A stretch of DNA of 64,000 nucleotides from Dehalococcoidia bacterium (GCA_965242565.1 OZ251457.1:2904653-2968652); one strand, 5' to 3'; positions 1,096 through 24,853 are shown, counted from the stretch's first letter. The notes: a model not told the origin generated them from the letters alone. Translations and numbers: made by a program.

Positions 1096-4000
1096 ATGAC
1101 CGAACGAGAACCCAATCTGCCGCCGACTCCCCCGGCGCAAGGCGACCAGGAGTTGCGCGACCGCGTCATCGCCGCGGCGATCGACCGCTGGGTGCGCGAC
1201 CTGACAGATCTGGGCGGGCGCAACAGCCTCATTTATCCCCCGCAGATCCGCGACGCCGCTCTCAACCTCACCCCATCCGCCGGTGCGGACGCCGACGCCG
1301 TCCAGCGAATCCTCAGCGGACAGCGCGTTGCGCTCTCCGAGTGCTTCCAGGCCAAACGACTTGCCGACGCTGCGCGCCGCGGTCGCACAATCGCGCGCCG
1401 CGCCGGCTGGCAAGCGGAAGAGACGGGCCTCCAGACGCTCTATCTCGGTCTGGGCGTCGTTTCGTGGAATGTCGAAGACGGCCCGCGCCCCGCCGCGCCG
1501 CTTCTACTCGCAGCCGTAGAGCTCACGCCGCGCGGACGCCTCAGCGAGGACTTCCGCATCGAGATCGTCGGTGACTGGCAGATCAATCTCGTCCTGATTC
1601 AGCTTCTCAAGAACGGCTTCGGCGTTGATCTCTCCGAGGGCGAATTCGAAGACATCCTGAAGGAGTTCGAGTCGCCCGCGCAGATCGATGATTTGTTTCA
1701 GGCCATCGCTGCTGTTCTGGATCGCGCGTGCGTCTCCATCCCCGGTTTTCGCATCGAAAAGACGGCGCTGCTGAGTAACTTTTCGTACGCGAAGCTTCCG
1801 ATGGTCCGCGATCTCGAGGAGTCCGCAGACTCTATCCGCAAACATCTGCTCGTTTCGGCGCTTGCCGGGGTCCCCGGCGCCCGGGAGCGGCTGCGCGACA
1901 GCGTCTTACCGGATGGCCGCGCTGATTTCGCCGCCGAGCTCCCGCCGCAAGATGAGTTCCTCGTCCTCGATGCGGATGCTTCCCAGTCCGCAGCGATCAA
2001 CGCCGCGCTCGCCGGACGCAACCTCGTCATCATCGGGCCGCCGGGCACCGGCAAGTCACAGACTATCGCCAACCTGATCGCCGCGCTTGTCGCGAATGAA
2101 AAGTCCATCCTGTTCGTCGCCGAGAAGCGTGCCGCCATCGAAACCGTGGCGGCGCGCCTCAAAAGCGTCGGCTTGGGTGATTTGCTCCTCGACGTCCACG
2201 GCGGCGTCCGCGACCATCGCCGTACGCTTGAGCAAATCGCGCAGGCGCTCGAAACGGCGCGCAGCGGGACTGTCGCTAACGATCCGTCGGACATTGGCCG
2301 CAGATTAATCCACAGCCGTAAGCGGCTCGCTGCCGCTGTGGAGGTGCTGCACCGGCCCGTAGAACCCTGGGGCCTTTCGGCATACGACGTCCAGGGCGAG
2401 TTGCTGGCGGTGGACGATCGCGATCGCCTGGACCGACGTCTCCGTGTGGAGTCGCTGAAACGCCTGGTCGGCGAAACGCTCGAATCCGTTCGGATAGACC
2501 TGCGCGCCTACGTCAATCTCCATCGACGTTTTGTCGATCCACAGAGTCCATGGTACGGCGCTTTTCGACGCGGGACGCTCGGGGTGCCTGCGCAAAGCGC
2601 GCAGGCCGTCGAAGAAATAGGCCAGCTCACCACCGTTACCCTGCCTCGCCTCCGGCGAGAGCTTGTCTCCCTGTCTGCAAAACTTGGCCTCGACCCGCCC
2701 GCGCGACTTGATGAAGTCGCCGGCTTAATCGATCGTGCCCGCCGGATCGTCGAGGCCTCCCGCACACTCAACGACGCCGCATCGCATTGGCGCAGCCAGT
2801 TTCAGACGGAAGCGGACCTCGCCGAATTACGCGATGCCCTCCAGCCGGTCCGCGGCGGCCCGGTCGCCAGGTTCGCCGCCGCTCTGTTGAGCAGTCGTTA
2901 CCGACAAGCGCGTGCGTCGGTTCGCGCAGCGCTGGTGCGTCAGACCGATGACGCCCGCGAAACGCTCCGCCTCCTCGATTGGCTGATCGACGCTCGATTC
3001 GCGCTCAACGACGCGGCGACGCCGAACCTGGCTCCGGAGTACGTTAATCCGCACAGGCTCGCCGAGATCGACCCCGAACCTGCCGCCAATGCGCTTCAGA
3101 CGGTTGAGCACTCTCTCAGCATCGTCGCCGATGTGGTCATGACCAAAGGATCCATGGCGAGCGACTTGGACCAGATCGAATCGATGCTCCGCGCCCTTGA
3201 CGCCGATCGCGACAGCATGCGCAATCTCATTCGTCTGCCCGAGCTTCACGACAGACTTGCCGAAGCCGGTCTCGGTGCGTTCACAGGTGTCGAGGCCGAT
3301 GTCGAACGCGATCCCGATTGGGACGGCGATGCGGCGGTTCGAGCTTTCGAGTACGCCAGGCTGCAAGGTATTCAGCAGTATCTGCTGGATCAATCCCCCG
3401 AGATCGCCGCCTTCGACGCCGCCAGTCACAACGCCGCGCTGAGCGAGTTCAACGAAGCGGACCGCGCACACGTCAGGACCAACCGGGATCGCATCCTTCG
3501 GCAGTGGGCGGAGAGAGTGATCGACGCGCGTGAACGTTTCCAGGCGGAAGGAGCTGAGCTGCTCTTCGAATCAAAGCGGAAACGTCGTCACATCCCGCTG
3601 CGGCAACTTTTCCACCGGGTTCCCAACATACTGACCCGGCTGAAGCCTTGTTGGGCGATGTCGCCGCTCGTCGTCTCCCAACTGCTGCCCAACGACGGAC
3701 CGCTATTCGATGTCGTCATTTTCGACGAGGCCTCGCAGGTGCGCCCGGCCGACGCTATCCCCGCGCTGCTGCGCGGCCGACAGGCCGTGATCGCAGGCGA
3801 TCCCAAGCAGCTGCCGCCGAACACCTTCTTCCTGTTCACCGCGTCCGATTCGGAAGACGAAAACGACGCTGCGGCGAGCGGACCGCCCACGGTCGATCTC
3901 GAGTCCATCCTCGATGCGGTCGCGGCGCTGCTGCCCGCTCCGTACGGCAGCCGGATGCTCAGCTGGCACTACCGCTCCCGCGACGAGCGGCTGATCGCGT

Positions 4001-5259
4001 TCTCCAATCGCCATGTCTACGGCCGACAGCTGACGACGTTCCCCGGCGCGCTGCGCGACGACTGCATTACGCACGTCGAGATTCCACGGTCGCCCGATTC
4101 CGTGTACCGCAACGCCTCGAACCCGGCTGAGGTTCGCAAAGTCGTCCAGCTCATTCTCGATCACGCCGAGCAGCGGCCGCACGAGTCGCTCGGCGTCATC
4201 GCGCTCGGTCTCCCCCACGCGAGTCAGATTGAAGAGATGCTGCGTCGTGCTCGACGCACTCGGCGCGACCTTGACGAATTCTTCAGCGAGGGAGGACATG
4301 AACCGTTTTTCGTCAAGAACCTGGAGCGCGTTCAGGGCGACGAGCGGGACGCGATCATCTTCACGGTCGGCTACGGGCGCGATCGTGACGGGCGGGTCCC
4401 CAACCGCTTCGGGCCGGTTGCCGGAGCCGGCGGCTACCGACGACTGAATGTCGCCATTACACGGGCAAAGCGTCGTATGACGGTAGTGTCGGCGTTCAGC
4501 GCCGACGATATCGATCCTGATCGCTTTCACAGCGAAGGCGTGCGCATGCTCGGGGAGTACATCGCCTACGCGGCCAGTGGAGGCCGGAACCTGAGTTTCG
4601 TCGACGCGGATACACAGCTGCTCAATCCGTTCGAAGCCGATGTAGAGCGCCGACTCGCCGCGGCCGGCATTCCGCTCAAGGCGCAATACGGCGCATCGGG
4701 CTATCGAATCGACTTTGCGGCGTTCCACCCGCAGCGCTCGAATCAGCCTGTCCTCGCCATTGAGGCCGACGGCGCTACCTACCATTCCGGTAAGAGCACT
4801 CGAGATCGCGATCGCCTCCGCCAGGATCACCTCGAGCGGCTCGGCTGGCGCTTCTACCGCATCTGGTCCACCGAGTGGTTCCGCAACCCGGAGCGGGAAG
4901 TTGAGCGATGCGTGGCAGCCTGGCGCGACGCCGTCGAGTCCTTGGAGAGCGGTGCAGAGCCCACATCGGTCGAACGCGCCGCCGAGCCGCTTGCCGCCGC
5001 TGCGCGACAGACACCGCAGCGCAGTCTCAGACCCAACATCGGTCCACCACGCGCGACCATCTCCGAGTACAGCGAAGCCGAACTTGCGGACCTTGTCCGC
5101 TGGATTCGGTCCGACGAAAAACTCCGCACGATGCAGGAACTGATTCAGGACACCATCAAGGAGTTGGGTTACCGTAAACGCAGCGGCGGAATCGAGGCCG
5201 CCGTCCGACGCGCGATCGCTGTCGCGAATCGGACAGGAGCCGACCATGACGACCAGTAA
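1096..5259 (+). CDS. large SF1 helicase-nuclease, 1387 aa. Domains: DUF4011-like N-terminus; Upf1/DNA2-like AAA_11-AAA_12 helicase (Walker A IIGPPGTGKSQT, motif II DVVIFDEASQ); Vsr/DUF559-like REase domain; C-terminal DUF3320-like tail. Resembles the 'Hhe' single-gene defence architecture
   Basis: Motifs read directly from the ORF translation. ATG sits 2 nt after the upstream stop. Domain-family names come from recall of Pfam architectures, not from a search. Confidence 0.8.
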   Translation: MTEREPNLPPTPPAQGDQELRDRVIAAAIDRWVRDLTDLGGRNSLIYPPQIRDAALNLTPSAGADADAVQRILSGQRVALSECFQAKRLADAARRGRTIARRAGWQAEETGLQTLYLGLGVVSWNVEDGPRPAAPLLLAAVELTPRGRLSEDFRIEIVGDWQINLVLIQLLKNGFGVDLSEGEFEDILKEFESPAQIDDLFQAIAAVLDRACVSIPGFRIEKTALLSNFSYAKLPMVRDLEESADSIRKHLLVSALAGVPGARERLRDSVLPDGRADFAAELPPQDEFLVLDADASQSAAINAALAGRNLVIIGPPGTGKSQTIANLIAALVANEKSILFVAEKRAAIETVAARLKSVGLGDLLLDVHGGVRDHRRTLEQIAQALETARSGTVANDPSDIGRRLIHSRKRLAAAVEVLHRPVEPWGLSAYDVQGELLAVDDRDRLDRRLRVESLKRLVGETLESVRIDLRAYVNLHRRFVDPQSPWYGAFRRGTLGVPAQSAQAVEEIGQLTTVTLPRLRRELVSLSAKLGLDPPARLDEVAGLIDRARRIVEASRTLNDAASHWRSQFQTEADLAELRDALQPVRGGPVARFAAALLSSRYRQARASVRAALVRQTDDARETLRLLDWLIDARFALNDAATPNLAPEYVNPHRLAEIDPEPAANALQTVEHSLSIVADVVMTKGSMASDLDQIESMLRALDADRDSMRNLIRLPELHDRLAEAGLGAFTGVEADVERDPDWDGDAAVRAFEYARLQGIQQYLLDQSPEIAAFDAASHNAALSEFNEADRAHVRTNRDRILRQWAERVIDARERFQAEGAELLFESKRKRRHIPLRQLFHRVPNILTRLKPCWAMSPLVVSQLLPNDGPLFDVVIFDEASQVRPADAIPALLRGRQAVIAGDPKQLPPNTFFLFTASDSEDENDAAASGPPTVDLESILDAVAALLPAPYGSRMLSWHYRSRDERLIAFSNRHVYGRQLTTFPGALRDDCITHVEIPRSPDSVYRNASNPAEVRKVVQLILDHAEQRPHESLGVIALGLPHASQIEEMLRRARRTRRDLDEFFSEGGHEPFFVKNLERVQGDERDAIIFTVGYGRDRDGRVPNRFGPVAGAGGYRRLNVAITRAKRRMTVVSAFSADDIDPDRFHSEGVRMLGEYIAYAASGGRNLSFVDADTQLLNPFEADVERRLAAAGIPLKAQYGASGYRIDFAAFHPQRSNQPVLAIEADGATYHSGKSTRDRDRLRQDHLERLGWRFYRIWSTEWFRNPEREVERCVAAWRDAVESLESGAEPTSVERAAEPLAAAARQTPQRSLRPNIGPPRATISEYSEAELADLVRWIRSDEKLRTMQELIQDTIKELGYRKRSGGIEAAVRRAIAVANRTGADHDDQ

Positions 5260-5300: not shown

Positions 5301-8300
5301 ATGGCCCGCCGAACGCCCGCCAACGACCCCGACGCCGTCCGCCGCGCCCTGCGCAGCTGGACCAACCAGCTGATCGACACCGGCGGACGCAACCGTCTGC
5401 TCTACTTCAAACACCTCAAGCGCGGCACCCTCGACCTCGGCCCCGACTCCGGCGCAGACTCCGCCGTCGCCGTCGCCCTCCGGCGCGGGCGCAGCATCAA
5501 ACTCTCCGACTGCTTCCCCGACGACAGCGGCGCCGCCGCCTCCCAGCGCGCTCGCTGGATCCTCCGCAAAGCCCGCGAGCACGAAGAAGAACAGGGCATC
5601 CGCACCCTCTACCTCGGCTGGCGCTTCGCAACCTGGCAGCAGTCCGGCCCCGGCCCCGCTACCCCCAACGCCCCGCTCCTGCTCGCCGCCGCCGAACTCA
5701 CCCCCCAGGGCCGCATGGGCGACGACTTCACGCTCAGCATCGCCGACGACTGGGAGGTCAACCCCAGTATGGCCCAGCTGCTCAAGCGCGAATTCGGCGC
5801 GGAACTCGACGAAGCCGCTCTCGAAGACCTGCTTCAGGCCGACCCGCTCGACGACGCGGCCATCCTCAATCAGCTCCGCCGCGCCTACGACACCATCCCC
5901 GGCTTCAACATCCACGACGGCCTCGTTCTCGGCACCTTTTCCTACGCCAAGCTCCCCATGGTCCGCGACCTTGAAGCCGCCGAAGCCGCCGTCGCCCAGC
6001 ATCCGCTCGTCGCCGCCATCGCCGGCGATCCCCAGGCCCAGGAGCAGCTGCGCGACACTCAGCGCAACGGCGCGCGCGGCCAATCCGTCCCCGGCGGCGA
6101 CGACCTCCCCCCGCGCGACGAGTTCCTCGTGCTCGACGCCGACGGCACCCAAAGCGAAGTGATCAACGCCGCCGTCGCCGGCGCAAACCTCGTCGTCGTC
6201 GGACCGCCCGGCACCGGCAAAAGCCAAACCATCGCCAACCTGCTCGCCACTCTCACCGCCCACGGGCGCTCAACCCTCTTCGTCGCCGAAAAGCGCGCCG
6301 CCATCGACGCCGTCGTCAAACGCCTCAACAGCGTCGGCCTCGGCGACCTCGTGCTCGACCTCCACGAAGGTATGCGCAGCCGTCGCCAAACCGCCGAACA
6401 ACTCGCCGCCGCCCTCGAAACCGCCCACACCGCCCGCGCCCCCAACGTCGAAACCCTCCAGCGCACCCTCAATCAAAGCCGCAAGAGGTTGAGCGACGCA
6501 GAACGCGAACTGCACCAGCCGCACGAACCCTGGGGCCTGTCGATCTATCAGCTCCAGTCCCGCATTCTCGGGATGGGTGATTCGAAGGACATCGGACTGC
6601 GAACAAGCGGTCGCGCCCTCAACGCGCTTCATGGCGAAGCCCTTGAAGCAGCAAAAGATGAGCTCGCCGAGTACATCAATCTCAACGGCGCAGTTCTGGA
6701 TGCGTCCCCCGATGCCCCCTGGGGCGCAGCCCATCGCGCCTCAACGCTGTCGACAAGTGAGCGGGCAGCCGAAGCAGTCCGGCTGCTGGATGACCTGAGC
6801 GGTCGGCTGCTGCCGGAAGTCGAACACGAGCTGGCGGAGATGGCCCAACATCTGGGCATCGACCCGCCCGCGACAGAGTCGATGACGCAAGCGCTGCTTG
6901 AGGCGCTCGCGCGCTTCGAGCCGCTGCACGGGCGGTTTGCCCCCGCAGCGTTCCAAGCCGGCGATGTGGAGAGCCTGCTCTCAGCGCTTGAGCCCGCCGA
7001 GCGCGGTCCTCTTGCCGAACTCAGCGAGACCGACCTGACGCCGTGGGGAGTGACGGTCGAAGAACTCGATCTACGCATTCAGGCGCTTGGCCCTGCTCCT
7101 GAGACCAGCCTCCGCTTACGCGGCGATCGCCTCAAGCGGCTCCGCGGCGACATGCTGGCGCAAGCGATGGCCGATCTGGAGGAGTACATCGATCGTGGCG
7201 GCGCGGAGCTTGACGTATCCGATGCTGCTCCGTGGAGCGCCGCTCACCGAACGTCATCTCTAAGGTCGGAAGCCGCAATCGATGAGGCCGGGCGCCTCCT
7301 TGATCGGCTCAGCGGCGAATTGCTGCCGGCGCTGGAGCGTGAAATCGCCCCGATCGCACAGCAGTTGGGCATCGCTCCGCCCGCGACAGTGCCGATGACG
7401 CGAGCGTTGCTTGAGGCGCTCACGCGCTTTGGGCCGTTGCACGGACGGTTCACGCCCGCAGTGTTCCAGGCCGACGATGTGGAGAGCCTGCTCTCAGCGC
7501 TTGACCCCGCCGAGCGCGGTCCTCTTGCCGGACTGAGCGCGACCGATTCAACGCCGTGGGGCGTAACGGTCGATGAGCTTGACTCACGCATTCAGGTACT
7601 AGGCCAGGCTCCCGAGACTAATTTGCGCTTGCGTGGCGACGCACTCAAGCGGCTCGGCGGCGACTTGCTGGCGCCGATCATGGCTGATCTTGAGGAGTAC
7701 GTCGATCGCGGCGGCGCGGAGCTTGAGGCATCCGATGCTGCTCCGTGGAGCGCCGCTCACCGAGCGTCAACCCTAAGGTCGGAAGCCGCAACCGATGAGG
7801 CAAATCGTCTCCTTGATCGGCTCAGCGGCGAATTACTGCCGGCGCTAGAGCGAGAAAATACGTCAATCGCACAGCATCTGGGCATCGCCCCGCCGCCTAC
7901 GCCAGAGACGATGCGAATACTGTTCGAGGCTCTGGATCGCTTTGCGCCATTGCAGGCGCGCTTTACGCCTGCCGTGTTCGCAGCAGACAACCTGGATAAC
8001 GTTGTCGCGCAACTCGAAGTCGCGAGCCAAGGCCCTCTTGCCGGCGTTGGCGGCGACCAGCGCACTCCTTGGGGCGTGACAGCTGGCGAACTCGATCTGC
8101 GCATCCAGGCCTTGGGTGATGCTCCGCTGTGCGACTTGCGGCTGCGGGGGGACACGCTGAGTGCGCTGGCTGGCGACTCGTTGCAGCGTATGATTGGGCA
8201 CCTCGCCGAGTACATGAATCGCGGCGGTGCCGATCTTGATGCGTCCTTTGGTGCGTGGAGCCCTGTGCATCAGGCGGCGGCCATCGACTCGAACGAACGG

Positions 8301-11300
8301 GTCGCGACTGCAGCTGACTTGCTCGATGAACTGTCGTCAAAGCTGCTGCCTGGCGTCGAACACGAACTGCGCGGAATCGCCGAACGACTGAGCATCGATG
8401 TACCCGCCACGATCGATGAAGCCCACGCGGCGCTTGCGGCAATTCGGCAAATGCAGGGACAACGGGAATGGTTCGCATCAGCAGTGTTCGACGCGAACGT
8501 CGAAACACTGCTCAGCGATCTGGAGGCCAGCCAGGGAGGTGCATTTGGACAGATCATGGCCCGGCTGTTCAATGCGCGATATCGCAGGGCCGTGCGAGAC
8601 TCACGCGAGTTGCTGCTCGATGAACAATCTTCACCAGGGGAGGCGTACGCTCGCTTGGTCGCGTTCTCCAAGGCGTGCGAAGCGTGGCGTGGCATAGCGC
8701 CGGACGATCCGACCGCCGCCGTCTGGGAGATCGACATTGCGCCGTGCGAGGCTGCCCTGGATCTGTTCTCGGACACGCTCGCGACGTTCCACAACGTAGT
8801 CGGGTTTGGCGACGCTGGCCTCGACTGGGCTGCGCAGCGCGAATGGCTCGACGCGCTGGAGCGCGAACGCGCAGTCTTGCTCCAGCTGCCGCACTTGGGG
8901 TCGCTGCGGAACCTGCTCGAGGACGCATCTGTCGCAGAATTCGCCCGGGAAGCTGAGCGACGAGGGTGGAGTGGGAACGAAGCAGCGCAAGCGCTGGATG
9001 AAGCTTGGACCCACTCCGCCCTTGCCGAGCTGACGGAGAGCGAACCGACTTGGCGTGCGCCGTACCGCGCGGCGCGCGCGAACGCGGACGAATGGCTCGT
9101 CCACCCTGACATGCCAACCGCGTGGGTACATCGGTGGCTGCGCGAGTTCACGGATGCTCGCGACCTGTGGCAACGAGCAACTGCCGCGTCTCCGATACCT
9201 GCGGTCTGGACGATCGCTCCTGACGAGGGCGCTGATGCGCTGGAGCGATTCTCCGAGGCGCTCACTGCATTCTGTGCGCTCGCGGCGCTGGATGATGTCG
9301 ATCTCGACTGGCCAACACAACGAGCACAGCTGAATACACTCCAGAGCCATCGTGCGGTCCTGTTCCAGCTTCAACGCTTGGCTTTCCTGCGCGAGCGTCT
9401 CCAGGACACGGCGGTCCTGGGCTTCGCGCGTGAAGCGCAACGACGTGGTTGGACCGGTGGTAATGCGGCGCAGGCTCTCAGCGATGCTTGGACCCGCTCG
9501 GTGCTTGACGAGGTGCAAGAAAGCGAGCCGACATCACACGCGCCATACCGGGCAGCGCGTGCGCGTGTCGACGAATTGCTGGCTCATGCAGCCATGCCAA
9601 CCGCGTGGGCAACTCAATGGCTGCGCGAGTTCGTGGATGCTCGCGACCTGTGGCAACGAGCCACCACCGCGTCTCCGACACCGGCAGCTTGGACGATTGC
9701 GCCTGACCAAGCCGCCAATGCGCTGGAGCGATTCTCGGAAACGCTCGCTGCGCTTTGTGCGCTCGCCGCGCTGGATGACGCTCACCTCGACTGGTCAGCA
9801 CAGCGAATGCGATTGGAGGCGCTCCAGAACCACCGCGCGGTACTGTCCCAACTCCCACGCTTGGCCTCCCTACGCGAGCGCCTGCAGGACGCCGCGATCC
9901 TGGACTTCGCGCGCGAAGCGCAACAACACGGCTGGACTGGCGATCGCGCCGCGCGGGCCCTCAACGACGCCTGGACTCGCTCGGTGCTTGACGAGGTGCA
10001 AGAAAGCGAGCCGACATCACACGCGCCGTACCGGACAGCGCGTGCGCGGGTCGACGAACTGTTGACTCATACGGCCATGCCGACCGCGTGGGTGGTTCAA
10101 TGGCTGCGCGAGTTCGTCGAAGCTCAGCGCATCTGGCAGCGCGCCGTGGCGTCCACTCCCACCGCTGCCGTCTGGACTGCCTCGCCCGCAAACTGCGCCA
10201 CTGCGCTGGCGCAGTTTGCGGAAGCGGCTGACGCCTTCTCTAATCTCGCGGCGCTCGATGATGCCGCTCTCGATTGGGCGGCGCGGCGGGCGCAGATCGA
10301 CTCGCTGCAACGCGACCGTACAGTCGCGCATCGTCTCCCCCGGTTGCACGACCTGCGGGCAAGCCTGAAACGTCGTGGCATGACGCGACTCGTGGCGGCG
10401 GTCCATCGACGCGGACTCGACGGGCGCGGCGCGGTAGAGGCGTTTGAGGACGCTTGGGCTCGTTCCGTGCTGAATGCGGTGAGCGCGGATGCGCCGATCT
10501 TCGCCTCGTTCAACGCTGACGGGCATAACAAGGCCGTCGCGGAATTCTGCGACGCCGACCGCGAGCACATCGCTCAAAGCCCCCGGCGCGTCGTCCGCGC
10601 CTGGGCCGAAGCCGCCGTCGCCGCACGCGACGAACATCCCGAACAGTCCCAACTGATCATGCGCGAGGCCAACCGCAAGCGGCGCCACCTGCCCACCCGC
10701 GACCTCTTCCAGCAGGCGCCCGACGTGCTTACCGCGCTCAAACCCTGCTGGGTCATGAGCCCGCTCGTCGTCGCCCAGCTGCTTCCGCTCGACGGCGATC
10801 CTCCTTTCGACGTTGTCGTCTTCGACGAAGCCAGCCAAATCCCGCCCGCCGACGCCGTTTCCTCCCTGCTGCGCGGACGCCAGGCCATCGTCGCCGGCGA
10901 CCCCAAACAGCTACCGCCCACCTCCTTCTTCACCAGCAGCACCGACCCTGACGACGACGACGACCTAGTCCCCCTGCTCACCCAGGATGTCGAATCAATC
11001 CTCGACGCCATGAGCACCCTGCTGCCCATGCCCTGGGGCTCCCGCACCCTCGGCTGGCACTACCGCAGCAAGGACGAGCGCCTGATCGCATTTTCCAACC
11101 ACCATGTCTACGACCGCCGCCTCACCACCTTCCCCGGCGCGTTGCCCGACGACTGCCTCGAACATGTCGAAGTTCCCTTCGAGCCGGACGCCTCCTGGGT
11201 CAGCGGCTCCTACTCCCCCGAGGTACAGCGCGTCGTCGAGCTGATCCTGCGGCACGCCGCCGAGCGCCCCGACGAGACGCTCGGCGTGATCGCCCTCGGC

Positions 11301-12320
11301 GCGGCCCACGCCAACCGCATCGCCGAAACCCTGCGCCTCGCCCGACGCGACCGCCCCGAACTCGACGACTTCTTCAGCGAAGCCAACGCCGAACCGTTCT
11401 TCGTCAAAAACCTCGAGCGCGTGCAGGGCGACGAGCGCGACGCCATCATCCTCACCGTCGGCTACGGGCGCACCGAGCACGGCCGCATGCGCTACAACTT
11501 CGGCCCCATCAACCAGGAGGGCGGCTTCCGACGCCTCAATGTCGCCGTCACCCGCGCCAAGCGCCGTATGACCGTCGTCAGCTGCTTTTCCCACAAACAC
11601 ATGGACCCCGGTCGGCTCAACAACGAGGGCGTGCGGATGCTGCGCGACTACATCGAATACGCCGCCGGCGGCGGCCGCAAACTCGGCGCCGGCGCGATCG
11701 ACGCCCCGCCGCTCAACTCGTTCGAGATCGATATCAAAAACCGCCTCGAACGGCGCGGCCTCAAGCTCCAGCCGCAGTACGGCGTCTCCGGCTACCGCAT
11801 CGACTTCGCCGCAATGCACCCCGATGAACCGGGACGCCCCATCCTCGCCATCGAAGCCGACGGCGCGCAATACCACTCCGCCCAGGCCGCGCGCGACCGC
11901 GACCGTCTCCGCCAGGAAAACCTCGAGCGACTCGGCTGGCGCTTCCACCGCATCTGGTCCACCGAGTGGTTCCGCAACCCCGAGCTCGAAGCCGACCGTG
12001 CTCTGGACGCCTACCAAGAAGCGCTCGCCGACGACCGCAAAGCCCCCTCATCCGCGCCGCCGGAAGAACCCCCTGCTGAGCCGCCGGAAGAACCGCCTCC
12101 CCCACCGTCGCGCGACCCGCGACCACCGGTGCAGCCCGGCCAAAAGATCGACGACTACAGCCCCCGCCAGCTGACCAGCATCATCGAGTGGATCGAATCC
12201 GACGGCCGCCTCCGCACCGAAGACGAACTGCTCGCCGAAGCAATGCAAGAACTCGGCTTCAAACGCCGCGGAACCAAAATCGTTGCCGCCCTCACCGAGG
12301 CCATCCGCCGCGCCCGCTGA
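5301..12320 (+). CDS. giant paralogue (2339 aa) of the upstream helicase-nuclease, with the same N-terminal, Walker A (VVVGPPGTGKSQT), motif II (DVVVFDEASQ), REase and DUF3320-like regions. About 1000 extra residues lie between the Walker A and Walker B motifs as tandem repeats
   Basis: Collinear similarity with 1096..5259 at both ends. Starts 41 bp after the upstream stop, on the same strand. Confidence 0.8.
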   Translation: MARRTPANDPDAVRRALRSWTNQLIDTGGRNRLLYFKHLKRGTLDLGPDSGADSAVAVALRRGRSIKLSDCFPDDSGAAASQRARWILRKAREHEEEQGIRTLYLGWRFATWQQSGPGPATPNAPLLLAAAELTPQGRMGDDFTLSIADDWEVNPSMAQLLKREFGAELDEAALEDLLQADPLDDAAILNQLRRAYDTIPGFNIHDGLVLGTFSYAKLPMVRDLEAAEAAVAQHPLVAAIAGDPQAQEQLRDTQRNGARGQSVPGGDDLPPRDEFLVLDADGTQSEVINAAVAGANLVVVGPPGTGKSQTIANLLATLTAHGRSTLFVAEKRAAIDAVVKRLNSVGLGDLVLDLHEGMRSRRQTAEQLAAALETAHTARAPNVETLQRTLNQSRKRLSDAERELHQPHEPWGLSIYQLQSRILGMGDSKDIGLRTSGRALNALHGEALEAAKDELAEYINLNGAVLDASPDAPWGAAHRASTLSTSERAAEAVRLLDDLSGRLLPEVEHELAEMAQHLGIDPPATESMTQALLEALARFEPLHGRFAPAAFQAGDVESLLSALEPAERGPLAELSETDLTPWGVTVEELDLRIQALGPAPETSLRLRGDRLKRLRGDMLAQAMADLEEYIDRGGAELDVSDAAPWSAAHRTSSLRSEAAIDEAGRLLDRLSGELLPALEREIAPIAQQLGIAPPATVPMTRALLEALTRFGPLHGRFTPAVFQADDVESLLSALDPAERGPLAGLSATDSTPWGVTVDELDSRIQVLGQAPETNLRLRGDALKRLGGDLLAPIMADLEEYVDRGGAELEASDAAPWSAAHRASTLRSEAATDEANRLLDRLSGELLPALERENTSIAQHLGIAPPPTPETMRILFEALDRFAPLQARFTPAVFAADNLDNVVAQLEVASQGPLAGVGGDQRTPWGVTAGELDLRIQALGDAPLCDLRLRGDTLSALAGDSLQRMIGHLAEYMNRGGADLDASFGAWSPVHQAAAIDSNERVATAADLLDELSSKLLPGVEHELRGIAERLSIDVPATIDEAHAALAAIRQMQGQREWFASAVFDANVETLLSDLEASQGGAFGQIMARLFNARYRRAVRDSRELLLDEQSSPGEAYARLVAFSKACEAWRGIAPDDPTAAVWEIDIAPCEAALDLFSDTLATFHNVVGFGDAGLDWAAQREWLDALERERAVLLQLPHLGSLRNLLEDASVAEFAREAERRGWSGNEAAQALDEAWTHSALAELTESEPTWRAPYRAARANADEWLVHPDMPTAWVHRWLREFTDARDLWQRATAASPIPAVWTIAPDEGADALERFSEALTAFCALAALDDVDLDWPTQRAQLNTLQSHRAVLFQLQRLAFLRERLQDTAVLGFAREAQRRGWTGGNAAQALSDAWTRSVLDEVQESEPTSHAPYRAARARVDELLAHAAMPTAWATQWLREFVDARDLWQRATTASPTPAAWTIAPDQAANALERFSETLAALCALAALDDAHLDWSAQRMRLEALQNHRAVLSQLPRLASLRERLQDAAILDFAREAQQHGWTGDRAARALNDAWTRSVLDEVQESEPTSHAPYRTARARVDELLTHTAMPTAWVVQWLREFVEAQRIWQRAVASTPTAAVWTASPANCATALAQFAEAADAFSNLAALDDAALDWAARRAQIDSLQRDRTVAHRLPRLHDLRASLKRRGMTRLVAAVHRRGLDGRGAVEAFEDAWARSVLNAVSADAPIFASFNADGHNKAVAEFCDADREHIAQSPRRVVRAWAEAAVAARDEHPEQSQLIMREANRKRRHLPTRDLFQQAPDVLTALKPCWVMSPLVVAQLLPLDGDPPFDVVVFDEASQIPPADAVSSLLRGRQAIVAGDPKQLPPTSFFTSSTDPDDDDDLVPLLTQDVESILDAMSTLLPMPWGSRTLGWHYRSKDERLIAFSNHHVYDRRLTTFPGALPDDCLEHVEVPFEPDASWVSGSYSPEVQRVVELILRHAAERPDETLGVIALGAAHANRIAETLRLARRDRPELDDFFSEANAEPFFVKNLERVQGDERDAIILTVGYGRTEHGRMRYNFGPINQEGGFRRLNVAVTRAKRRMTVVSCFSHKHMDPGRLNNEGVRMLRDYIEYAAGGGRKLGAGAIDAPPLNSFEIDIKNRLERRGLKLQPQYGVSGYRIDFAAMHPDEPGRPILAIEADGAQYHSAQAARDRDRLRQENLERLGWRFHRIWSTEWFRNPELEADRALDAYQEALADDRKAPSSAPPEEPPAEPPEEPPPPPSRDPRPPVQPGQKIDDYSPRQLTSIIEWIESDGRLRTEDELLAEAMQELGFKRRGTKIVAALTEAIRRAR
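6670..8700. repeat. intragenic tandem repeat family A: 4 units of ~510 nt (~170 aa). Unit boundaries fall at about 6670, 7177, 7691 and 8205. The 4th unit is diverged
   Basis: Near-identical nucleotide stretches are visible, e.g. ...gaggagtacatcgatcgtggcggcgcggagcttga... recurs with ~510-nt period. Protein blocks DLEEYIDRGGAELD...APWSAAHR...LGIAPPAT...PLHGRFTPAVFQ are repeated. Confidence 0.8.
8700..10560. repeat. intragenic tandem repeat family B: ~4 units of ~480 nt (~160 aa)
   Basis: Protein blocks FAREAQRRGWTGxxAAQAL(S/N)DAWTRSVLDEVQESEPTSHAPYRxARARVDELLxHxAMPTAWxxQWLREFV recur with ~160-aa period. The corresponding nucleotide stretches are nearly identical. Confidence 0.75.
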
Positions 12321-12365: not shown

Positions 12366-12914
12366 TTAACAGTCGGCGATGCCGAGCGCATAATGTATCG
12401 CCCACCTCTCCGGCTCCTCCGCATTCGCCGCCCTACGGACGATCTCAACGAGCTCTGCGTATACGCGCATGTCGTCGTCGTTTTCGACAAATCGAGGGTC
12501 AGCCGGCCGAGTGGTTCGCGACACGAACGTTACGTACTGTCCGTTGATCACTCGCAATTCGTAATCCTCAACCCGCGACCCGTTCTGCTCGATGAGCGCC
12601 GCGAGCTCCTTTGGCAGCTCGGAATCAGCCGTGAGTCCGTGATCGATGATTGAGTCGAAATATGTTTCTTCATATCCCGACTCACTATCCTGTATGCACA
12701 CATCCTCATCTGGTATCCCCAGGTACTCCCCGCGGTCGTTCGTGTAGTCAGCCAACGCAAGGCCAAGCTGGCGCCCCGACCCACCCCCAATAGGCCACGG
12801 ATCGGGCGTTGGCGGCAGCGACGGGCTGGACGAAGGCCCCAATTGCCAAACGAGCACGGCAATGATCGCCGCCGCAACCGCCACGCCAACGCCGGCGAGA
12901 GTGAACGTCCTCAT
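12366..12914 (-). CDS. hypothetical membrane-anchored/secreted protein. Start taken at MRTFTLAGVGVAVAAAIIAVLV, an N-terminal TM helix or signal anchor
   Basis: ORF with a hydrophobic N-terminus. Gene body is clearly lower in GC than its surroundings. I recognise no domain. Confidence 0.45.
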   Translation of the reverse strand: MRTFTLAGVGVAVAAAIIAVLVWQLGPSSSPSLPPTPDPWPIGGGSGRQLGLALADYTNDRGEYLGIPDEDVCIQDSESGYEETYFDSIIDHGLTADSELPKELAALIEQNGSRVEDYELRVINGQYVTFVSRTTRPADPRFVENDDDMRVYAELVEIVRRAANAEEPERWAIHYALGIADC

Positions 12915-13242: not shown

Positions 13243-14340
13243 ATGCCACGCTCGATCACCCTCCTCTGCGACATCGACGACGACCTGCGCGCCCGGATCG
13301 AGCAGGCGCAGCGCGCCGCCAACGCCGCCCAGGCCGCCGTCCCCGACGGCTACGAGCGCTTCCTGCGGCGGCGCGGCGGATACCTCAGCGGGCGCGCCTC
13401 CACCGTGATCGAGGGCAACCCGCTCGACGAGCGCGCCTCGCAGCTCGCAGCCTTTGACGGCGAGGGCGACTCGCCGGCTCACATCGACCTGCGCAACTCG
13501 ATCGAAGCCTGCGCGCTCGCGCTCGACTGGGCGCAGGACCTCTCTTTCCACCTCGACCAGGGCGCAATTCGCGCTTTCAATTCCGTGCTCCTGCGCGGCC
13601 TGCCCGGGCGCGCCGCCGACAACCGCGGCCGCTACCGCCTCGGCGGCAGCCTGGTTATGAACACCGCGACCCGCAGCATCGTCTACACCACCCCGCCGCC
13701 CGCCTGGCTGCCCGAACTGATGGACTCGCTGGAAGCGCGCATCGCCGAGTGGCAGCGCGACGACCCGCCCGCCGTCGTCGCCGCCAAAGCCCACTTCAGC
13801 CTCGTCTCCGTGCATCCCTTCGAGGACGGCAACGGCCGCACGGCGCGGCTGCTCGCCGACCTCATCCTGCACCGCGCGGGCCTCACCGCGGACGGAATGG
13901 CCGCGCTGAGCGGCGCCATCCTCAGCCGCCGCGCCGAGTACTACGAAACCCTCGCCGCCGTGCAGGGCGCGGAGTTCCAGTGCGTCGTCGACGTTGCGCC
14001 CTTTGTCCACTTCCACACCTCCGCGCTGCGCGACGCAATCGAAACGCTGCGCAGCTACGTGGACGCGCTGAACCGCCGCCGCCAGACGCTCCAGGCGCTC
14101 CAGGCGCTGCAAGCCGCCGACGCGCTCTCCGAGCGCCGCATCCTCGGCCTCCTTGCAATGCTTCAATTCAGCCCGCTCTCCGCTTCCACCTGGGGCGAGC
14201 TCGCCGAGTGCTCGCCGCAGACCGCCCGAACCGACCTCGCCGCACTGACCGCCGACGGCTTCGTCGAACGCATCGGGCGCGGCAAGGCGACCCGCTACGA
14301 CCTCTCGGCGTACACCCGCGACCTGCTCGGCGCGGCCTAA
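13243..14340 (+). CDS. Fic family protein (Fic/DOC fold)
   Basis: Canonical Fic active-site motif HPFEDGNGRTAR is present in the translation. The C-terminal region is consistent with a winged-helix tail. Confidence 0.85.
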   Translation: MPRSITLLCDIDDDLRARIEQAQRAANAAQAAVPDGYERFLRRRGGYLSGRASTVIEGNPLDERASQLAAFDGEGDSPAHIDLRNSIEACALALDWAQDLSFHLDQGAIRAFNSVLLRGLPGRAADNRGRYRLGGSLVMNTATRSIVYTTPPPAWLPELMDSLEARIAEWQRDDPPAVVAAKAHFSLVSVHPFEDGNGRTARLLADLILHRAGLTADGMAALSGAILSRRAEYYETLAAVQGAEFQCVVDVAPFVHFHTSALRDAIETLRSYVDALNRRRQTLQALQALQAADALSERRILGLLAMLQFSPLSASTWGELAECSPQTARTDLAALTADGFVERIGRGKATRYDLSAYTRDLLGAA

Positions 14341-23521: not shown

Positions 23522-24853
23522 CTAGGGGGTAGGGGCTTCCGTTTGACCCTCGTGATTGCGTCCCCAGCACGCAATTTCCCCGTTGTGCGTAACCCCGCAG
23601 GTGTGATGGTCTCCAGCGCTAACAGCTGTCCACCGACCATCCGGAACCTCGGTTTGCCCATAGTCGTTGGCTCCCCAACACACGATCTCGCCAGTAGTGC
23701 GTAGACCGCACTTGTGGGCAGGGCCCAAACCTACACCAGCACTGACAGTAGTGAAGCTCCCAGCAGGAGTGCCGGTTTGCAAGATGTCCGCAGCCACCCA
23801 GCACACGAGCTCACCAGTGCCACGCACTGCACAATCGCCGCCGCCGGTACCGATCGCGGTGAAGGTCCCTATCCGCGTCCTGTTGCCTGCCCGTCCCCAA
23901 CACTCGATCTCTCCCGTTGTGCGCAGGCCGCAGGTGTCCGCCCACCCTGCACTGATTGCGGTGAAACTGCCCACTGGCGTGTCGACTTGTCCGAAGTCGG
24001 CATTGGCTCCTGCCCATCCGCCTCCCCAACACTCAATTCCGCCTGTCGCATGCAGACCGCAGGTGTGTGTATAGCCGCTCGTGACGGCCGTGAAAACACT
24101 CCCTGCTGGCGGGTTACTTTGCCCGAAGATATTGCCGCCCCAGCACACGATCCTGCCCGTATCGCGCACTCCGCAGGTGTGGAGTTGACTGGCACTGACG
24201 GCAGTGAAGATCCCGGTGGGGGCATTTGCTTGGCCCCAGTCAACGGTGAGCTCGTCTTCGATCGTGGTGTCCGTATTAGCACCCCAGCACGTGACCTCGC
24301 CTGTTCTGCGAAGGCCACAAGTGTGCCAGCGCCCAGCACTGACCGCTATGAAGCGCTGAGGCTGCGCTACGATCGTGATCTCCGTGCTGCGCAACCAGCG
24401 GCCTACGCGGGCGCCAACTGGGAAGTAGCGCGACGGCGGGGCGATGCGCTCGCCATCTGTCGGCGTGAATGCGAATTCGATCCGGCCGTCGTCCCTCAGT
24501 CGCGCGTTGATCCGGCCAATCTCCACGCCGTCTACCTCTACCGGGCTGCTGTTCAGCCAACGGTCTACCTCTGCGTCGGCGGGGAAGTAGCGGGCGCGCG
24601 GCAAGACTCGCTCTCCGCCGGCGGGCTGCCAGCCGAACTCCGTTCGGCCGTCGTCGAGTCGCTGCGCGACGATGCGGCCTGTCTGCTCGTCGTCGCTCTG
24701 CGCGTGCGCGATCCCTGCCGCCCAAGCCGCCGTCAATGCCAGCAGCGCCGCCAATCCCAGCAGCAGCGCTTTAGTTGAGGGTTTTACCCCCCCCCCCCCC
24801 GAGATCCGTCCAAACGCGCAGACGCATGACCAGTTTCCCCTCCTGCCGGCCAC
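23522..24853 (-). CDS. secreted RCC1-repeat (beta-propeller) protein with two N-terminal ~50-aa modules
   Basis: Repeated HTCG(L/V)...GxxxCWG blocks (~8 copies). A signal-peptide-like KPSTKALLLGLAALLALTAAWAAGIAHA is present. The annotated start is GTG at 24853; see the homopolymer finding. Confidence 0.8.
   Translation of the reverse strand: MAGRRGNWSCVCAFGRISGGGGVKPSTKALLLGLAALLALTAAWAAGIAHAQSDDEQTGRIVAQRLDDGRTEFGWQPAGGERVLPRARYFPADAEVDRWLNSSPVEVDGVEIGRINARLRDDGRIEFAFTPTDGERIAPPSRYFPVGARVGRWLRSTEITIVAQPQRFIAVSAGRWHTCGLRRTGEVTCWGANTDTTIEDELTVDWGQANAPTGIFTAVSASQLHTCGVRDTGRIVCWGGNIFGQSNPPAGSVFTAVTSGYTHTCGLHATGGIECWGGGWAGANADFGQVDTPVGSFTAISAGWADTCGLRTTGEIECWGRAGNRTRIGTFTAIGTGGGDCAVRGTGELVCWVAADILQTGTPAGSFTTVSAGVGLGPAHKCGLRTTGEIVCWGANDYGQTEVPDGRWTAVSAGDHHTCGVTHNGEIACWGRNHEGQTEAPTP
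24787..24800. repeat. C14 (G14 on the coding strand) homopolymeric tract inside the 5' end of the RCC1 gene
   Basis: Plus strand reads ttttaCCCCCCCCCCCCCCgagat. On the coding strand it encodes SGGGGV immediately before the signal peptide. Confidence 0.9.

What the first reader, a model, noticed from the sequence alone, without database searches (positions are those of the whole stretch)
6670..10560. ~3.9-kb block of near-identical intragenic tandem repeats (4 x ~510 nt, then ~4 x ~480 nt) expanding the helicase insertion domain
The segment between Walker A and motif II is ~500 aa in the first helicase and ~1500 aa in the second. The extra length comes from two successive repeat families (A and B), each present about four times. 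The first three A copies and B copies 2-4 are almost identical at nucleotide level. This implies very recent duplication or ongoing gene conversion. In the first helicase one A-like and one B-like module is present, so the unit A+B looks like the ancestral insertion domain. The result is an unusually long, modular spacer or coiled arm between the two RecA lobes' motifs. Such a repeat structure is recombinationally unstable and could vary in copy number between strains, like a contingency locus. It is also a classic source of assembly collapse or expansion artefacts.
Basis: seen in the sequence. Interest (0 to 1): 0.75.

Follow-up and report, generated by a model that had tools for sequence, protein, structure and literature searches.

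The report
Nested-repeat arm of a helicase-nuclease
A 2339-residue bacterial helicase-nuclease, related to anti-phage proteins, carries four copies of its helical insertion domain nested inside one another, most likely forming a long two-stranded arm whose length (1 to 4 modules) differs between closely related strains; the copies are old and diverged, not recent and not an assembly error.

Summary
The repeats are real. ORF2 (5301..12320) holds four in-frame 513-nt A units (6528-8579) followed by four 483-nt B units (8562-10493). They are not near-identical: the best pairs share 74% (A2/A3) and 78% (B2/B3) of bases, dS is about 0.7, and A4 and B1 are far more diverged. Every unit is under purifying selection.

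The 4+4 layout was assembled independently at least three times, so it is not an artefact. One A plus one B is the standard insertion module of this DUF4011/SF1-helicase/Vsr-nuclease family (Hhe, ProA and PDC-S37 relatives). Coevolution analysis shows that the module is an antiparallel hairpin.

In ORF2 the outer modules are split exactly at the tip turn and each holds the next module inside it (A1[A2[A3[A4 B1]B2]B3]B4). All 21 known expanded sequences have equal A and B numbers (4+4, 3+3 or 2+2). Duplication ages are mirrored between the two arrays. Removing B2 lowers AlphaFold confidence for A3 only.

Four lineages each keep both long-arm and single-module alleles at the same chromosomal locus. 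Other family branches lengthen the same arm with different short repeats, again in roughly matched numbers. The arm's function is unknown. This is a new variant of a known kind.

The parts
1096..5259 (+). Helicase 1 (ORF1, 1387 aa): a paralogue with a single A-like plus B-like module. Domains: DUF4011, AAA_11, AAA_12, MTES_1575 nuclease.
   Evidence: ORF1 424-780 aligns with ORF2 923-1262 (A4+B1). Present only in lineage-I loci.
5301..12320 (+). Helicase 2 (ORF2, 2339 aa): DUF4011 + SF1 (Upf1-like) helicase + Vsr-like nuclease, with the 4+4 arm.
   Evidence: Identical to P0272.
5370..5783 (+). DUF4011 N-terminal domain (aa 24-161).
   Evidence: Pfam PF13195, E = 3.5e-12.
6201..6224 (+). Walker A motif GPPGTGKS (aa 301-308).
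6528..7040 (+). A1: base-proximal outgoing unit (aa 410-580). Proposed partner: B4.
7041..7553 (+). A2: middle outgoing unit (aa 581-751). Proposed partner: B3.
7554..8066 (+). A3: middle outgoing unit (aa 752-922). Proposed partner: B2.
   Evidence: AlphaFold confidence for A3 falls when B2 is removed.
8067..8579 (+). A4: tip-proximal outgoing unit (aa 923-1093). It overlaps the start of B1 at the turn.
8520..8594 (+). Intact tip turn LEASQGGAFGQIMARLFNARYRRAV (aa 1074-1098). The homologous motif is split in the outer modules: A1-A3 end '..LEPAERGPLAGLS..' and B2-B4 start '..APYRAARA..'.
   Evidence: DCA local pairs 147-170.
8562..9044 (+). B1: tip-proximal returning unit (aa 1088-1248). Partner: A4.
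9045..9527 (+). B2: middle returning unit (aa 1249-1409). Partner: A3.
9528..10010 (+). B3: middle returning unit (aa 1410-1570). Partner: A2.
10011..10493 (+). B4: base-proximal returning unit (aa 1571-1731). Partner: A1.
6849..7061 (+). Younger patch shared with 7362-7574 (A1/A2): 86% nt identity, pS 0.25. A second patch, 7149-7331 with 7662-7844 (A2/A3), has 88% identity and pS 0.19.
9489..9602 (+). Younger patch shared with 9972-10085 (the B2/B3 and B3/B4 boundaries): 91% identity, pS 0.24. It includes a 50-nt exact repeat (9495-9544 = 9978-10027).
10821..10838 (+). Helicase motif II, FDEASQ (aa 1841-1846).
11217..11582 (+). Second RecA-like domain (AAA_12, aa 1973-2094).
11721..12002 (+). 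C-terminal Vsr-like PD-(D/E)xK nuclease (MTES_1575/DUF559, aa 2141-2234).
   Evidence: Pfam PF18741, E = 8e-33.

Best explanation
ORF2 is an Upf1-like superfamily-1 helicase with an N-terminal DUF4011 domain and a C-terminal Vsr-like nuclease. It is a relative of the anti-phage proteins Hhe and ProA and of the PADLOC candidate PDC-S37.

Its first RecA-like domain carries an all-helical insertion module of about 330 residues. By my recollection of the Upf1, IGHMBP2 and Sen1 structures, this is the position of their subdomain 1C. The module is an antiparallel hairpin: half A runs out from the motor and half B runs back. The start of A packs on the end of B (the base), and the end of A packs on the start of B (the tip).

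In this lineage the module has been multiplied by nesting. Each outer module is opened at its tip turn and holds a complete module inside it, giving A1[A2[A3[A4 B1]B2]B3]B4. The result is a two-stranded arm four modules long.

Because both strands must span the same distance, only alleles with equal numbers of A and B units are seen (4+4, 3+3, 2+2, 1+1). The duplications are old: dS is about 0.7 for A2/A3 and B2/B3, about 1 for A1/A2 and B3/B4, and saturated for the rest. They were paired in time and were followed by partial gene conversion. Arm length now varies between strains through recombination that swaps the arm as a cassette.

Shown: the repeat anatomy, the ages, purifying selection, equal copy numbers, the antiparallel coupling within a module, the split tip motif, and the polymorphism.

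Inferred: direct A(i)-B(5-i) packing in the four-module protein, and the function of the arm. My best guess at function is a rigid spacer that sets how far the tip module sits from the motor and nuclease. On that view its length and surface are kept polymorphic because they tune recognition of a target or partner, or escape from phage inhibitors.
For: Repeat anatomy and significance.

Family assignment: Pfam finds DUF4011, AAA_11, AAA_12 and MTES_1575. PADLOC gives PDC-S37 at E = 3e-289 and Hhe at 2e-144. NCBIfam gives ProA at 939 bits and Hhe at 650 bits.

Position of the insertion: ORF1 279-355 aligns with IGHMBP2 177-253, and ORF1 793-911 with IGHMBP2 294-407.

Equal copy numbers: nA = nB in the window and in all 21 full-length expanded sequences found among about 15 billion proteins. 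These are 5 of 4+4, 14 of 3+3 and 2 of 2+2. All other relatives examined have one module, apart from a few branches with short-repeat expansions.

Positional unit classes: unit trees for A and B show mirrored first, middle and last classes.

Mirrored ages: dS is 0.70 for A2/A3 and 0.72 for B2/B3, and 0.93 for A1/A2 and 1.11 for B3/B4.

Selection: dN/dS is 0.14-0.41 for every unit.

Coevolution (DCA) on 194 single modules: 21 of the top 30 pairs are A-B pairs. All 21 have i+j between 300 and 360, against a background of 36%. Spearman correlation is -0.86.

Split tip motif: the tip-turn motif is intact at A4-B1 and split between the ends of A1-A3 and the starts of B2-B4.

AlphaFold: the A3A4B1B2 model has mean pLDDT 90 and is all-helical. 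Removing B2 lowers A3 from 91.0 to 78.6, while A4B1 is unchanged.

Independent assemblies and cassette-like allele differences.

Four lineages each hold long and short alleles.

Parallel two-sided expansions occur elsewhere in the family, with roughly matched counts. For the 45/52-aa repeats, N-side/C-side counts are 5.8/6, 4.8/5 and 3.8/4. For the 32/26-aa repeats they are 10.3/11, 7.7/7.5 and 4.0/4.4.
Against: No atomic coordinates or predicted-error map were available to me, so A3-B2 contact in the model is inferred from a confidence drop and was not seen directly.

The DCA rests on only about 173 effective sequences, and it tests pairing within a single module, not between nested modules.

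The 21 expanded sequences come from about 7 clusters in 4 related lineages, so they are few independent events. Cassette exchange between alleles that already have equal numbers would by itself preserve equality.

Copy counts for the short-repeat branches are approximate.

The gene sits at a conserved chromosomal place beside metabolic genes, not in an obvious defence island. NCBIfam scores are below the Hhe and ProA cut-offs. A defence role is therefore only by family resemblance.
Confidence: 0.7

Rival explanations
1. One reading: very recent tandem duplications, or ongoing homogenisation, create an unstable locus that changes copy number at high frequency by slippage or unequal crossing-over between near-identical units, like a contingency locus.
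For: Copy number does differ between close relatives. Local patches of 86-91% identity and a 50-nt exact repeat show that some exchange between units has occurred. P0003's middle B unit looks like a B2/B3 hybrid.
Against: Units share only 57-78% of bases. dS is 0.7 to above 1.6, against 0.09 between strains. The 4+4 alleles of lineages I and II (87% aa identity, dS about 0.38) keep the same eight positional units, so the layout has been stable for a long time. Alleles differ by replacement of the whole arm with diverged sequence, not by gain or loss of identical units.
Confidence: 0.1
2. Assembly artefact: the true gene has one A and one B unit, and the array arose from repeat mis-assembly.
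For: Long intragenic repeats are a known source of assembly errors. Some cluster members are fragmented gene calls (P0276-P0278).
Against: The units differ at 22-60% of positions, so they cannot be copies of one unit. The reading frame is intact over 7 kb. The identical protein (P0272) is on record from a 3.26-Mb contig. 4+4 also occurs in a circular 3.23-Mb contig at 19x, in a 1.04-Mb contig and in two metagenome scaffolds. Every unit has dN/dS below 0.41.
Confidence: 0.01
3. Two independent helical repeat arrays: the A array and the B array fold separately as beads on a string, and the equal numbers reflect shared history or chance, not pairing.
For: Each unit has 8-9 helices and could be a small domain by itself. 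Only about 4 lineages are sampled. No coordinates were seen.
Against: DCA shows strong antiparallel A-B coupling within the single module. The array boundaries fall exactly at the tip turn. Removing B2 lowers confidence in A3 alone. Duplication ages are mirrored. Three different repeat types in other branches also keep the two sides about equal.
Confidence: 0.1
4. A tolerated, functionless expansion: a large insertion domain that simply accumulated neutral duplications in a gene of relaxed importance.
For: dN/dS in the arm (0.22-0.28) is about twice that of the helicase core (0.10-0.12). Single-module alleles coexist with long ones, so long arms are not essential.
Against: All eight units are under purifying selection. 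There are no frameshifts or stops in 21 sequences. Copy numbers are strictly equal. Long alleles are retained across lineages that have diverged to dS about 0.4 or more.
Confidence: 0.09

Closest known systems
Hhe (DUF4011 helicase + Vsr endonuclease single-gene anti-phage protein, Gao et al. 2020, from my knowledge; NCBIfam NF042953, PADLOC Hhe)
   Same: The same domain order: DUF4011, an SF1 helicase (AAA_11/AAA_12) and a C-terminal Vsr-like nuclease. Strong profile matches: PADLOC E = 2e-144 and NCBIfam 650 bits.
   Different: The score is far below the NCBIfam equivalog cut-off (650 against 2000). The matches cover mainly the C-terminal half. Nothing I found describes a nested, multiplied insertion module for Hhe. 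The gene here sits at a conserved chromosomal locus, not in an obvious island.
NCBIfam 'anti-phage protein ProA' (NF058533) and PADLOC candidate PDC-S37
   Same: These are the best-scoring named families: ProA 939 bits and PDC-S37 961 bits at E = 3e-289.
   Different: The ProA score is below its cut-off (1500). PDC-S37 is, to my knowledge, only a candidate. I found no paper on ProA. The profiles are 1550-1903 positions long and align in two stretches around the arm.
CoCoNuT CnuH helicases, especially type III-B (PMC10542128)
   Same: They are Upf1-like SF1 helicases with 'a large helical insertion' after Walker A, partly predicted as coiled coil. In type III-B a Vsr-like nuclease is fused directly to the helicase.
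   Different: CnuH is defined by its linkage to McrBC-like CnuB/CnuC genes, and none is nearby here. The paper does not report whole-module nesting or arm-length polymorphism.
Subdomain 1C of Upf1, IGHMBP2 and Sen1 (the 'prong' of Sen1)
   Same: The same place in the chain: between motif Ia and motif II of the first RecA-like domain. The arm replaces IGHMBP2 residues about 254-293. That this stretch is subdomain 1C is my recollection of the structures.
   Different: It is 40-55 residues long there, against 330 to 1320 residues here. No sequence or fold similarity was detected.
Antiparallel coiled-coil arms of SMC, MukB and Rad50
   Same: Functional analogy only. The outgoing and returning strands must match in length, so changes on one side need a matching change on the other. 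Foldseek gives only weak, non-significant hits to MukB and SMC arms.
   Different: There is no homology. The arm here is built of helical-bundle modules inserted into a helicase domain, and its length is polymorphic within lineages.
Contingency loci (simple-sequence phase variation)
   Same: Intragenic repeats whose copy number differs between strains.
   Different: The units are 483-513 nt and only 57-78% identical, and changes are rare recombination events. There is no evidence of reversible high-frequency switching.

Membership tests
Hhe anti-phage protein | DUF4011 N-terminal domain | tested here: met
   PF13195 at E = 3.5e-12 in ORF2 and 1.3e-9 in ORF1.
Hhe anti-phage protein | SF1 helicase core with intact Walker A and motif II | tested here: met
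   AAA_11 and AAA_12 hits. GPPGTGKS at aa 301 and FDEASQ at aa 1841.
Hhe anti-phage protein | C-terminal Vsr-like endonuclease | tested here: met
   MTES_1575 at E = 8e-33 and DUF559 at 6e-6.
Hhe anti-phage protein | Score at or above the NCBIfam equivalog cut-off (NF042953, 2000 bits) | tested here: not met
   650 bits for ORF2 and 642 bits for ORF1.
Hhe anti-phage protein | Protects against phage when expressed | not testable with these tools
   Needs a plaque assay.
ProA anti-phage protein (NF058533) | Score at or above the curated cut-off (1500 bits) | tested here: not met
   939 bits for ORF2 and 917 bits for ORF1.
PADLOC PDC-S37 (candidate single-gene defence) | Significant full-length match to the PDC-S37 profile | tested here: met
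   E = 3.2e-289 for ORF2 and 4.5e-286 for ORF1, each in two stretches flanking the arm. The library gives no curated cut-off.
Upf1-like SF1 helicases | Sequence relatedness of the motor to Upf1, IGHMBP2, Sen1 and DNA2 | tested here: met
   PDB hits: IGHMBP2 at 1e-13, Sen1 at 2e-6, DNA2 at 8e-6 and Nam7/Upf1 at 2e-5. TIGR00376 (IGHMBP2 family) at 6e-25.
CoCoNuT type III-B CnuH | Encoded next to McrB-like (CnuB) and McrC-like (CnuC) genes and a coiled-coil CnuA | tested here: not met
   The neighbours are acyl-CoA dehydrogenase, the paralogous helicase, a small unknown ORF, Fic and a CoA-transferase, both in the window and in 9 related loci.
Contingency locus | Near-identical short tandem units prone to slippage | tested here: not met
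   The units are 483-513 nt and 39-78% identical. The longest exact repeat is 50 nt.
Nested (domain-in-domain) repeat arm, as proposed here | Equal numbers of outgoing and returning units in every allele | tested here: met
   All 21 expanded sequences plus the window.
Nested (domain-in-domain) repeat arm, as proposed here | Antiparallel contacts between the A and B halves | tested here: met
   DCA: 21 of the top 30 pairs are A-B, all near one anti-diagonal, rho = -0.86. This holds for the single module.
Nested (domain-in-domain) repeat arm, as proposed here | Direct packing of A(i) on B(n+1-i) in multi-module proteins | tested here: inconclusive
   The support is indirect. A3 pLDDT falls from 91.0 to 78.6 when B2 is removed, while A4B1 is unchanged. 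The tip motif is split. No coordinates were available.

The most novel reading that the evidence does not exclude
The arm is a length-adjustable functional element of an immune helicase-nuclease. Nesting complete modules into the tip turn is an evolutionary way to lengthen a two-stranded arm in steps. Selection keeps short-arm and long-arm alleles side by side in the same populations, because arm length and surface decide which invader, DNA structure or partner is engaged, or which phage inhibitor is evaded. The same solution, matched two-sided repeat growth, has arisen at least three times in the family with different repeat units.
Probability: 0.3. Interest if true: 0.78.

Novelty: new variant of a known kind. 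Interest (0 to 1): 0.6.

Why it matters
Tandem domain repeats are common. A Russian-doll arrangement is rare: complete modules sit inside the tip of one another, which forces the two halves of the array to grow in step. The case gives a clear natural example of how a two-stranded protein arm can be lengthened in steps.

The family includes proven and candidate anti-phage proteins whose mechanism is unknown. A naturally occurring series of 1-, 2-, 3- and 4-module alleles with nearly identical motors and nucleases is a ready-made experiment for asking what the insertion domain does. Three of these alleles occur in coexisting genomes of one sample.

The finding also warns annotators. The very different lengths of these orthologues (about 1350, 1673, 2010 and 2339 aa) are real alleles, not mis-assemblies.

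Tried and rejected
- Scanning the genome collection with arm peptides found no relative.
- The listing of cluster members returned no source names. The exact-protein look-up of P0272 found no record.
- Tandem Repeats Finder sees only part of the B array.
- Self-BLASTP hid internal repeats, so I used in-register comparison, unit HMMs and diagonal scoring instead.
- I considered that the small minus-strand ORF at 12366-12914 might be a partner of long arms. It is present in four loci with 3 or 4 modules and absent from the 1+1 and 2+2 loci first examined. The idea was rejected because two further 3+3 loci lack it.
- Correlated per-unit divergence between orthologues was considered as evidence for pairing. 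I dropped it because contiguous recombination tracts would give the same pattern.
- Literature searches for ProA and for any description of the Hhe or DUF4011 insertion domain found nothing specific.
- No tRNA or Rfam element lies in the window.

Full report
**1. Observation**

The window starts with part of an acyl-CoA dehydrogenase gene. Two same-strand paralogous genes follow: ORF1 (1096..5259, 1387 aa) and ORF2 (5301..12320, 2339 aa).

Inside ORF2 there are two successive tandem arrays, both in frame and without gaps:
- Four A units of 513 nt (171 aa) start at 6528, 7041, 7554 and 8067.
- Four B units of 483 nt (161 aa) start at 8562, 9045, 9528 and 10011. The array ends at 10493.

Self-BLASTN gives E = 8e-176 for the 513-nt offset and 2e-170 for the 483-nt offset. 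The distance from Walker A to motif II is 559 aa in ORF1 and 1537 aa in ORF2.

**2. The copies are not near-identical**

| Unit pair | Nucleotide identity, in register |
|---|---|
| A1/A2 | 67% |
| A2/A3 | 74% |
| A1/A3 | 57% |
| A4 vs other A units | 39-41% |
| B2/B3 | 78% |
| B3/B4 | 62% |
| B2/B4 | 58% |
| B1 vs other B units | 48-56% |

Third codon positions are the most diverged.

Nei-Gojobori estimates of dS are:
- 0.70 for A2/A3 and 0.72 for B2/B3
- 0.93 for A1/A2 and 1.11 for B3/B4
- 1.6 or saturated for all other pairs

For comparison, dS between the window and its closest orthologous locus (L009) is 0.09. The duplications are thus many times older than the strain split.

Short patches are younger: 6849-7061 and 7149-7331 at offset 513, and 9489-9602 at offset 483. 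They have 86-91% identity and pS 0.19-0.25, against 0.46-0.71 elsewhere. One includes a 50-nt exact repeat. This indicates partial gene conversion or hybrid units.

**3. Not an artefact, and under selection**

A protein identical to ORF2 (P0272) is on record from a 3.26-Mb contig. Further 4+4 genes occur in a circular 3.23-Mb contig (L009, 95% aa identity), in a 1.04-Mb contig and in two metagenome scaffolds (L010, 87%).

Between orthologues, dN/dS is 0.14-0.41 for every one of the eight units. It is 0.22-0.28 for the whole arm and 0.10-0.12 for the helicase core.

**4. What the protein is**

Both ORFs have the same domains: DUF4011, an AAA_11/AAA_12 superfamily-1 helicase, and a C-terminal MTES_1575/DUF559 (Vsr-like) nuclease.

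The best named matches are:
- PADLOC PDC-S37 (E = 3e-289) and Hhe (2e-144)
- NCBIfam 'anti-phage protein ProA' (939 bits, cut-off 1500) and Hhe (650 bits, cut-off 2000)

They are relatives of these families, not members by the curated thresholds.

The motor is Upf1-like. Sequence matches in the PDB are IGHMBP2, Sen1, DNA2 and Nam7.

In the IGHMBP2 alignment, ORF1 279-355 matches chain residues 177-253 and ORF1 793-911 matches 294-407. The arm therefore replaces about 40 residues between motifs Ia and II of the first RecA-like domain. From my knowledge of those structures, that is the place of subdomain 1C. The insertion is not between the two RecA lobes.

The CoCoNuT paper notes that related CnuH helicases have a large helical, partly coiled-coil insertion after Walker A, and in type III-B a fused Vsr-like nuclease (PMC10542128). 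No McrBC-like genes are near this locus.

**5. One A plus one B is the family's standard module**

I built HMMs from the A and B units. They find exactly one A followed by one B in almost all of 120 homologues, where the Walker A to motif II distance is about 540 aa.

A profile search of 1.84 billion representative proteins finds the module in 1226 of them. The only representative with whole-module multiplication is P0003, which stands for this clade.

**6. A and B copy numbers are always equal**

| Layout | Full-length sequences | Which |
|---|---|---|
| 4+4 | 5 | window/P0272, P0001, P0275, P0002, P0279 |
| 3+3 | 14 | clusters of P0003, P0004, P0005, P0006 |
| 2+2 | 2 | P0007, P0290 |

A second homologue search with the arm alone found no further expanded clusters. 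No unequal full-length allele exists among the 21 sequences. The apparent AAAABBB (P0278) is a truncated gene call.

Unit trees show mirrored positional classes: first, middle and last A units correspond to last, middle and first B units. A 2+2 allele has first and last units only. A 3+3 allele adds one middle pair, and a 4+4 allele adds two.

**7. The module is an antiparallel hairpin, and the copies are nested**

Mean-field DCA used 194 non-redundant single modules (316 columns, about 173 effective sequences). Twenty-one A-B pairs fall among the top 30 couplings. All 21 lie near one anti-diagonal (i+j between 300 and 360, background 36%), and Spearman rho is -0.86. The start of A couples with the end of B, and the end of A with the start of B.

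The turn joining the two halves carries a conserved motif, L.P..RG..G.L.A.L....YR.A.
- It is intact in single-module proteins and at the A4-B1 junction of ORF2 (LEASQGGAFGQIMARLFNARYRRAV, 8520-8594).
- In the outer units it is split. A1-A3 end with LEPAERGPLAGLS followed by a few residues and then the next PWG. B2-B4 begin with PT..APYRAARA straight after the previous unit's ...ESE.

Each outer module is therefore a complete module opened at its tip turn, with another complete module (PWG...ESE) inside it: A1[A2[A3[A4 B1]B2]B3]B4.

**8. Structure prediction**

AlphaFold2 on A3A4B1B2 (33-row alignment) gives mean pLDDT 90 and pTM 0.61. The model is all-helical, and confidence dips only at the A3|A4, A4|B1 and B1|B2 junctions.

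I repeated the run with B2 removed and the same alignment depth. Mean pLDDT of A3 falls from 91.0 to 78.6, with every 10-residue block lower. A4B1 is unchanged or slightly higher. This fits A3 packing on B2. I could not inspect coordinates, so it remains indirect.

**9. Population picture**

The gene sits at one conserved chromosomal place in every locus fetched: acyl-CoA dehydrogenase, helicase(s), Fic, CoA-transferase.

Flank identity defines four lineages. Flanks are 92-99% identical within a lineage and 82-92% between lineages. Each lineage holds both long and single-module alleles:

| Lineage | Alleles (modules) |
|---|---|
| I | window 4, P0001 4, P0003 3, P0008 1, P0010 1 |
| II | P0002 4, P0004 3, P0009 1, P0011 1 |
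| III | P0005 3, P0007 2, P0013/14/16 1 |
| IV | P0006 3, P0015 1 |

Three lineage-I alleles (1, 3 and 4 modules) lie on three separate contigs of about 3.2 Mb from one sample, ERZ26050812. Two of those contigs carry the circular suffix '_c' and the third '_rc'.

At the DNA level the arm behaves as a cassette:
- The window and L002 (1+1) are 94% identical up to nt 6825 and again from 10533. The arm between those points has been replaced.
- The window and L001 (3+3) are 85% identical up to 7594, about 75% in the centre and 95% from 9423. The net difference is 996 nt, exactly 513 + 483.

It varies by recombination between old, diverged alleles, not by slippage.

**10. The same solution elsewhere in the family**

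More distant members lengthen the same region with other repeats, one family on the N side and another on the C side, in roughly equal numbers:

| Repeat type (N side / C side) | Protein | N-side copies | C-side copies |
|---|---|---|---|
| 45 aa / about 52 aa | P0042 | 5.8 | 6 |
| 45 aa / about 52 aa | P0033 | 4.8 | 5 |
| 45 aa / about 52 aa | P0035 group | 3.8 | 4 |
| 32 aa / 26 aa | P0052 | 10.3 | about 11 |
| 32 aa / 26 aa | P0051 | 7.7 | 7.5 |
| 32 aa / 26 aa | P0045 | 4.0 | 4.4 |

These counts are approximate. They point to a general rule for this arm: both strands grow together.

**11. Mechanism, with its limits**

- **Shown:** the anatomy, the ages, purifying selection, equal copy numbers, the antiparallel coupling, the split tip motif and the polymorphism.
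- **Inferred:** direct A(i)-B(5-i) packing in the four-module protein, and the function of the arm.

The longest helix in the model has 33 residues, about 5 nm. If modules stack end to end, four of them could reach roughly 20 nm. That is a rough inference without coordinates.

How A and B were added in step is unknown. The near-equal dS values suggest paired events. One register-shifted double crossover of a linear fragment could add one A and one B at once, but this is conjecture.

My preferred functional reading is a rigid spacer that sets the distance between a tip module and the motor and nuclease. On that reading it is kept polymorphic because it affects recognition or inhibitor escape. 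This rests only on family resemblance to defence proteins and on the allele pattern.

The gene's core-like, non-island location argues for caution. A DUF4011 gene is likewise a core gene flanking a defence hotspot in Pseudomonas aeruginosa (PMC10250203).

**12. Verdict**

The repeats and copy numbers are right, and the near-identity claim is wrong.

It is an expanded insertion domain with an ancestral A+B unit and strain-level copy-number variation. It is not recent, not a contingency locus and not an artefact.

This is a new variant of a known kind: a known helicase-nuclease family with a previously undescribed nested, equal-numbered, polymorphic repeat arm.

Noticed in passing
window 1096-5259; L001 3871-7959; L003, L010, L011-L014: The tandem paralogue, helicase 1, is present only in lineage-I loci; the other lineages have helicase 2 alone. 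In L001, helicase 1 (P0028) is a mosaic. Its last ~130 aa are 91-98% identical to window ORF1. The rest is closer to single-module helicase-2 alleles (65% to P0008, 50% to ORF1).
   Followed up: partly
window 12366-12914 (- strand): A small ORF (182 aa from its ATG) with an N-terminal hydrophobic anchor and no family match, lying between helicase 2 and Fic. It is present in the window, L001, L009 and L010, and absent from L002, L003 and L011-L014. It is therefore variable but not tied to arm length.
   Followed up: yes
window 13243-14340 and orthologous loci: A Fic-domain gene lies immediately downstream of helicase 2 in every locus examined, across four lineages. Whether it is functionally linked to the helicase is unknown.
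   Followed up: no
P0042, P0033, P0035/40/44/47/48, P0052, P0051, P0045, P0173, P0163 (relatives, not in the window): Other branches of the family lengthen the same insertion with different short repeats: 45/52 aa, 32/26 aa and about 63-89 aa. One repeat type lies on the N side and another on the C side, in roughly equal numbers.
   Followed up: partly
window 9495-9544 and 9978-10027: A 50-nt exact direct repeat spans the B2|B3 and B3|B4 unit boundaries. It is the longest identical stretch in the gene and the most likely site for unequal crossing-over.
   Followed up: partly
window 39893-42916 (+): A 1007-aa protein with a sacsin-type HATPase region and a C-terminal NOV_C/DUF3883 domain. This combination also occurs in candidate defence proteins.
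   Followed up: no
window 54623-57226 (-): An 867-aa AAA_13 / SMC_N / AAA_21 ATPase, an ABC-type ATPase of the kind common in defence systems.
   Followed up: no
window 23522-24853 (-) and 34100-36160 (+): Two proteins rich in RCC1 repeats; the second has nine RCC1_2 repeats.
   Followed up: no
L002, L009 and L001 (sample ERZ26050812): Three ~3.2-Mb contigs from one metagenome sample (suffixes '_c', '_c' and '_rc') carry 1-, 4- and 3-module alleles at the same locus, with 94-98% identical flanks. Closely related strains that differ in this gene coexist in the sample.
   Followed up: partly
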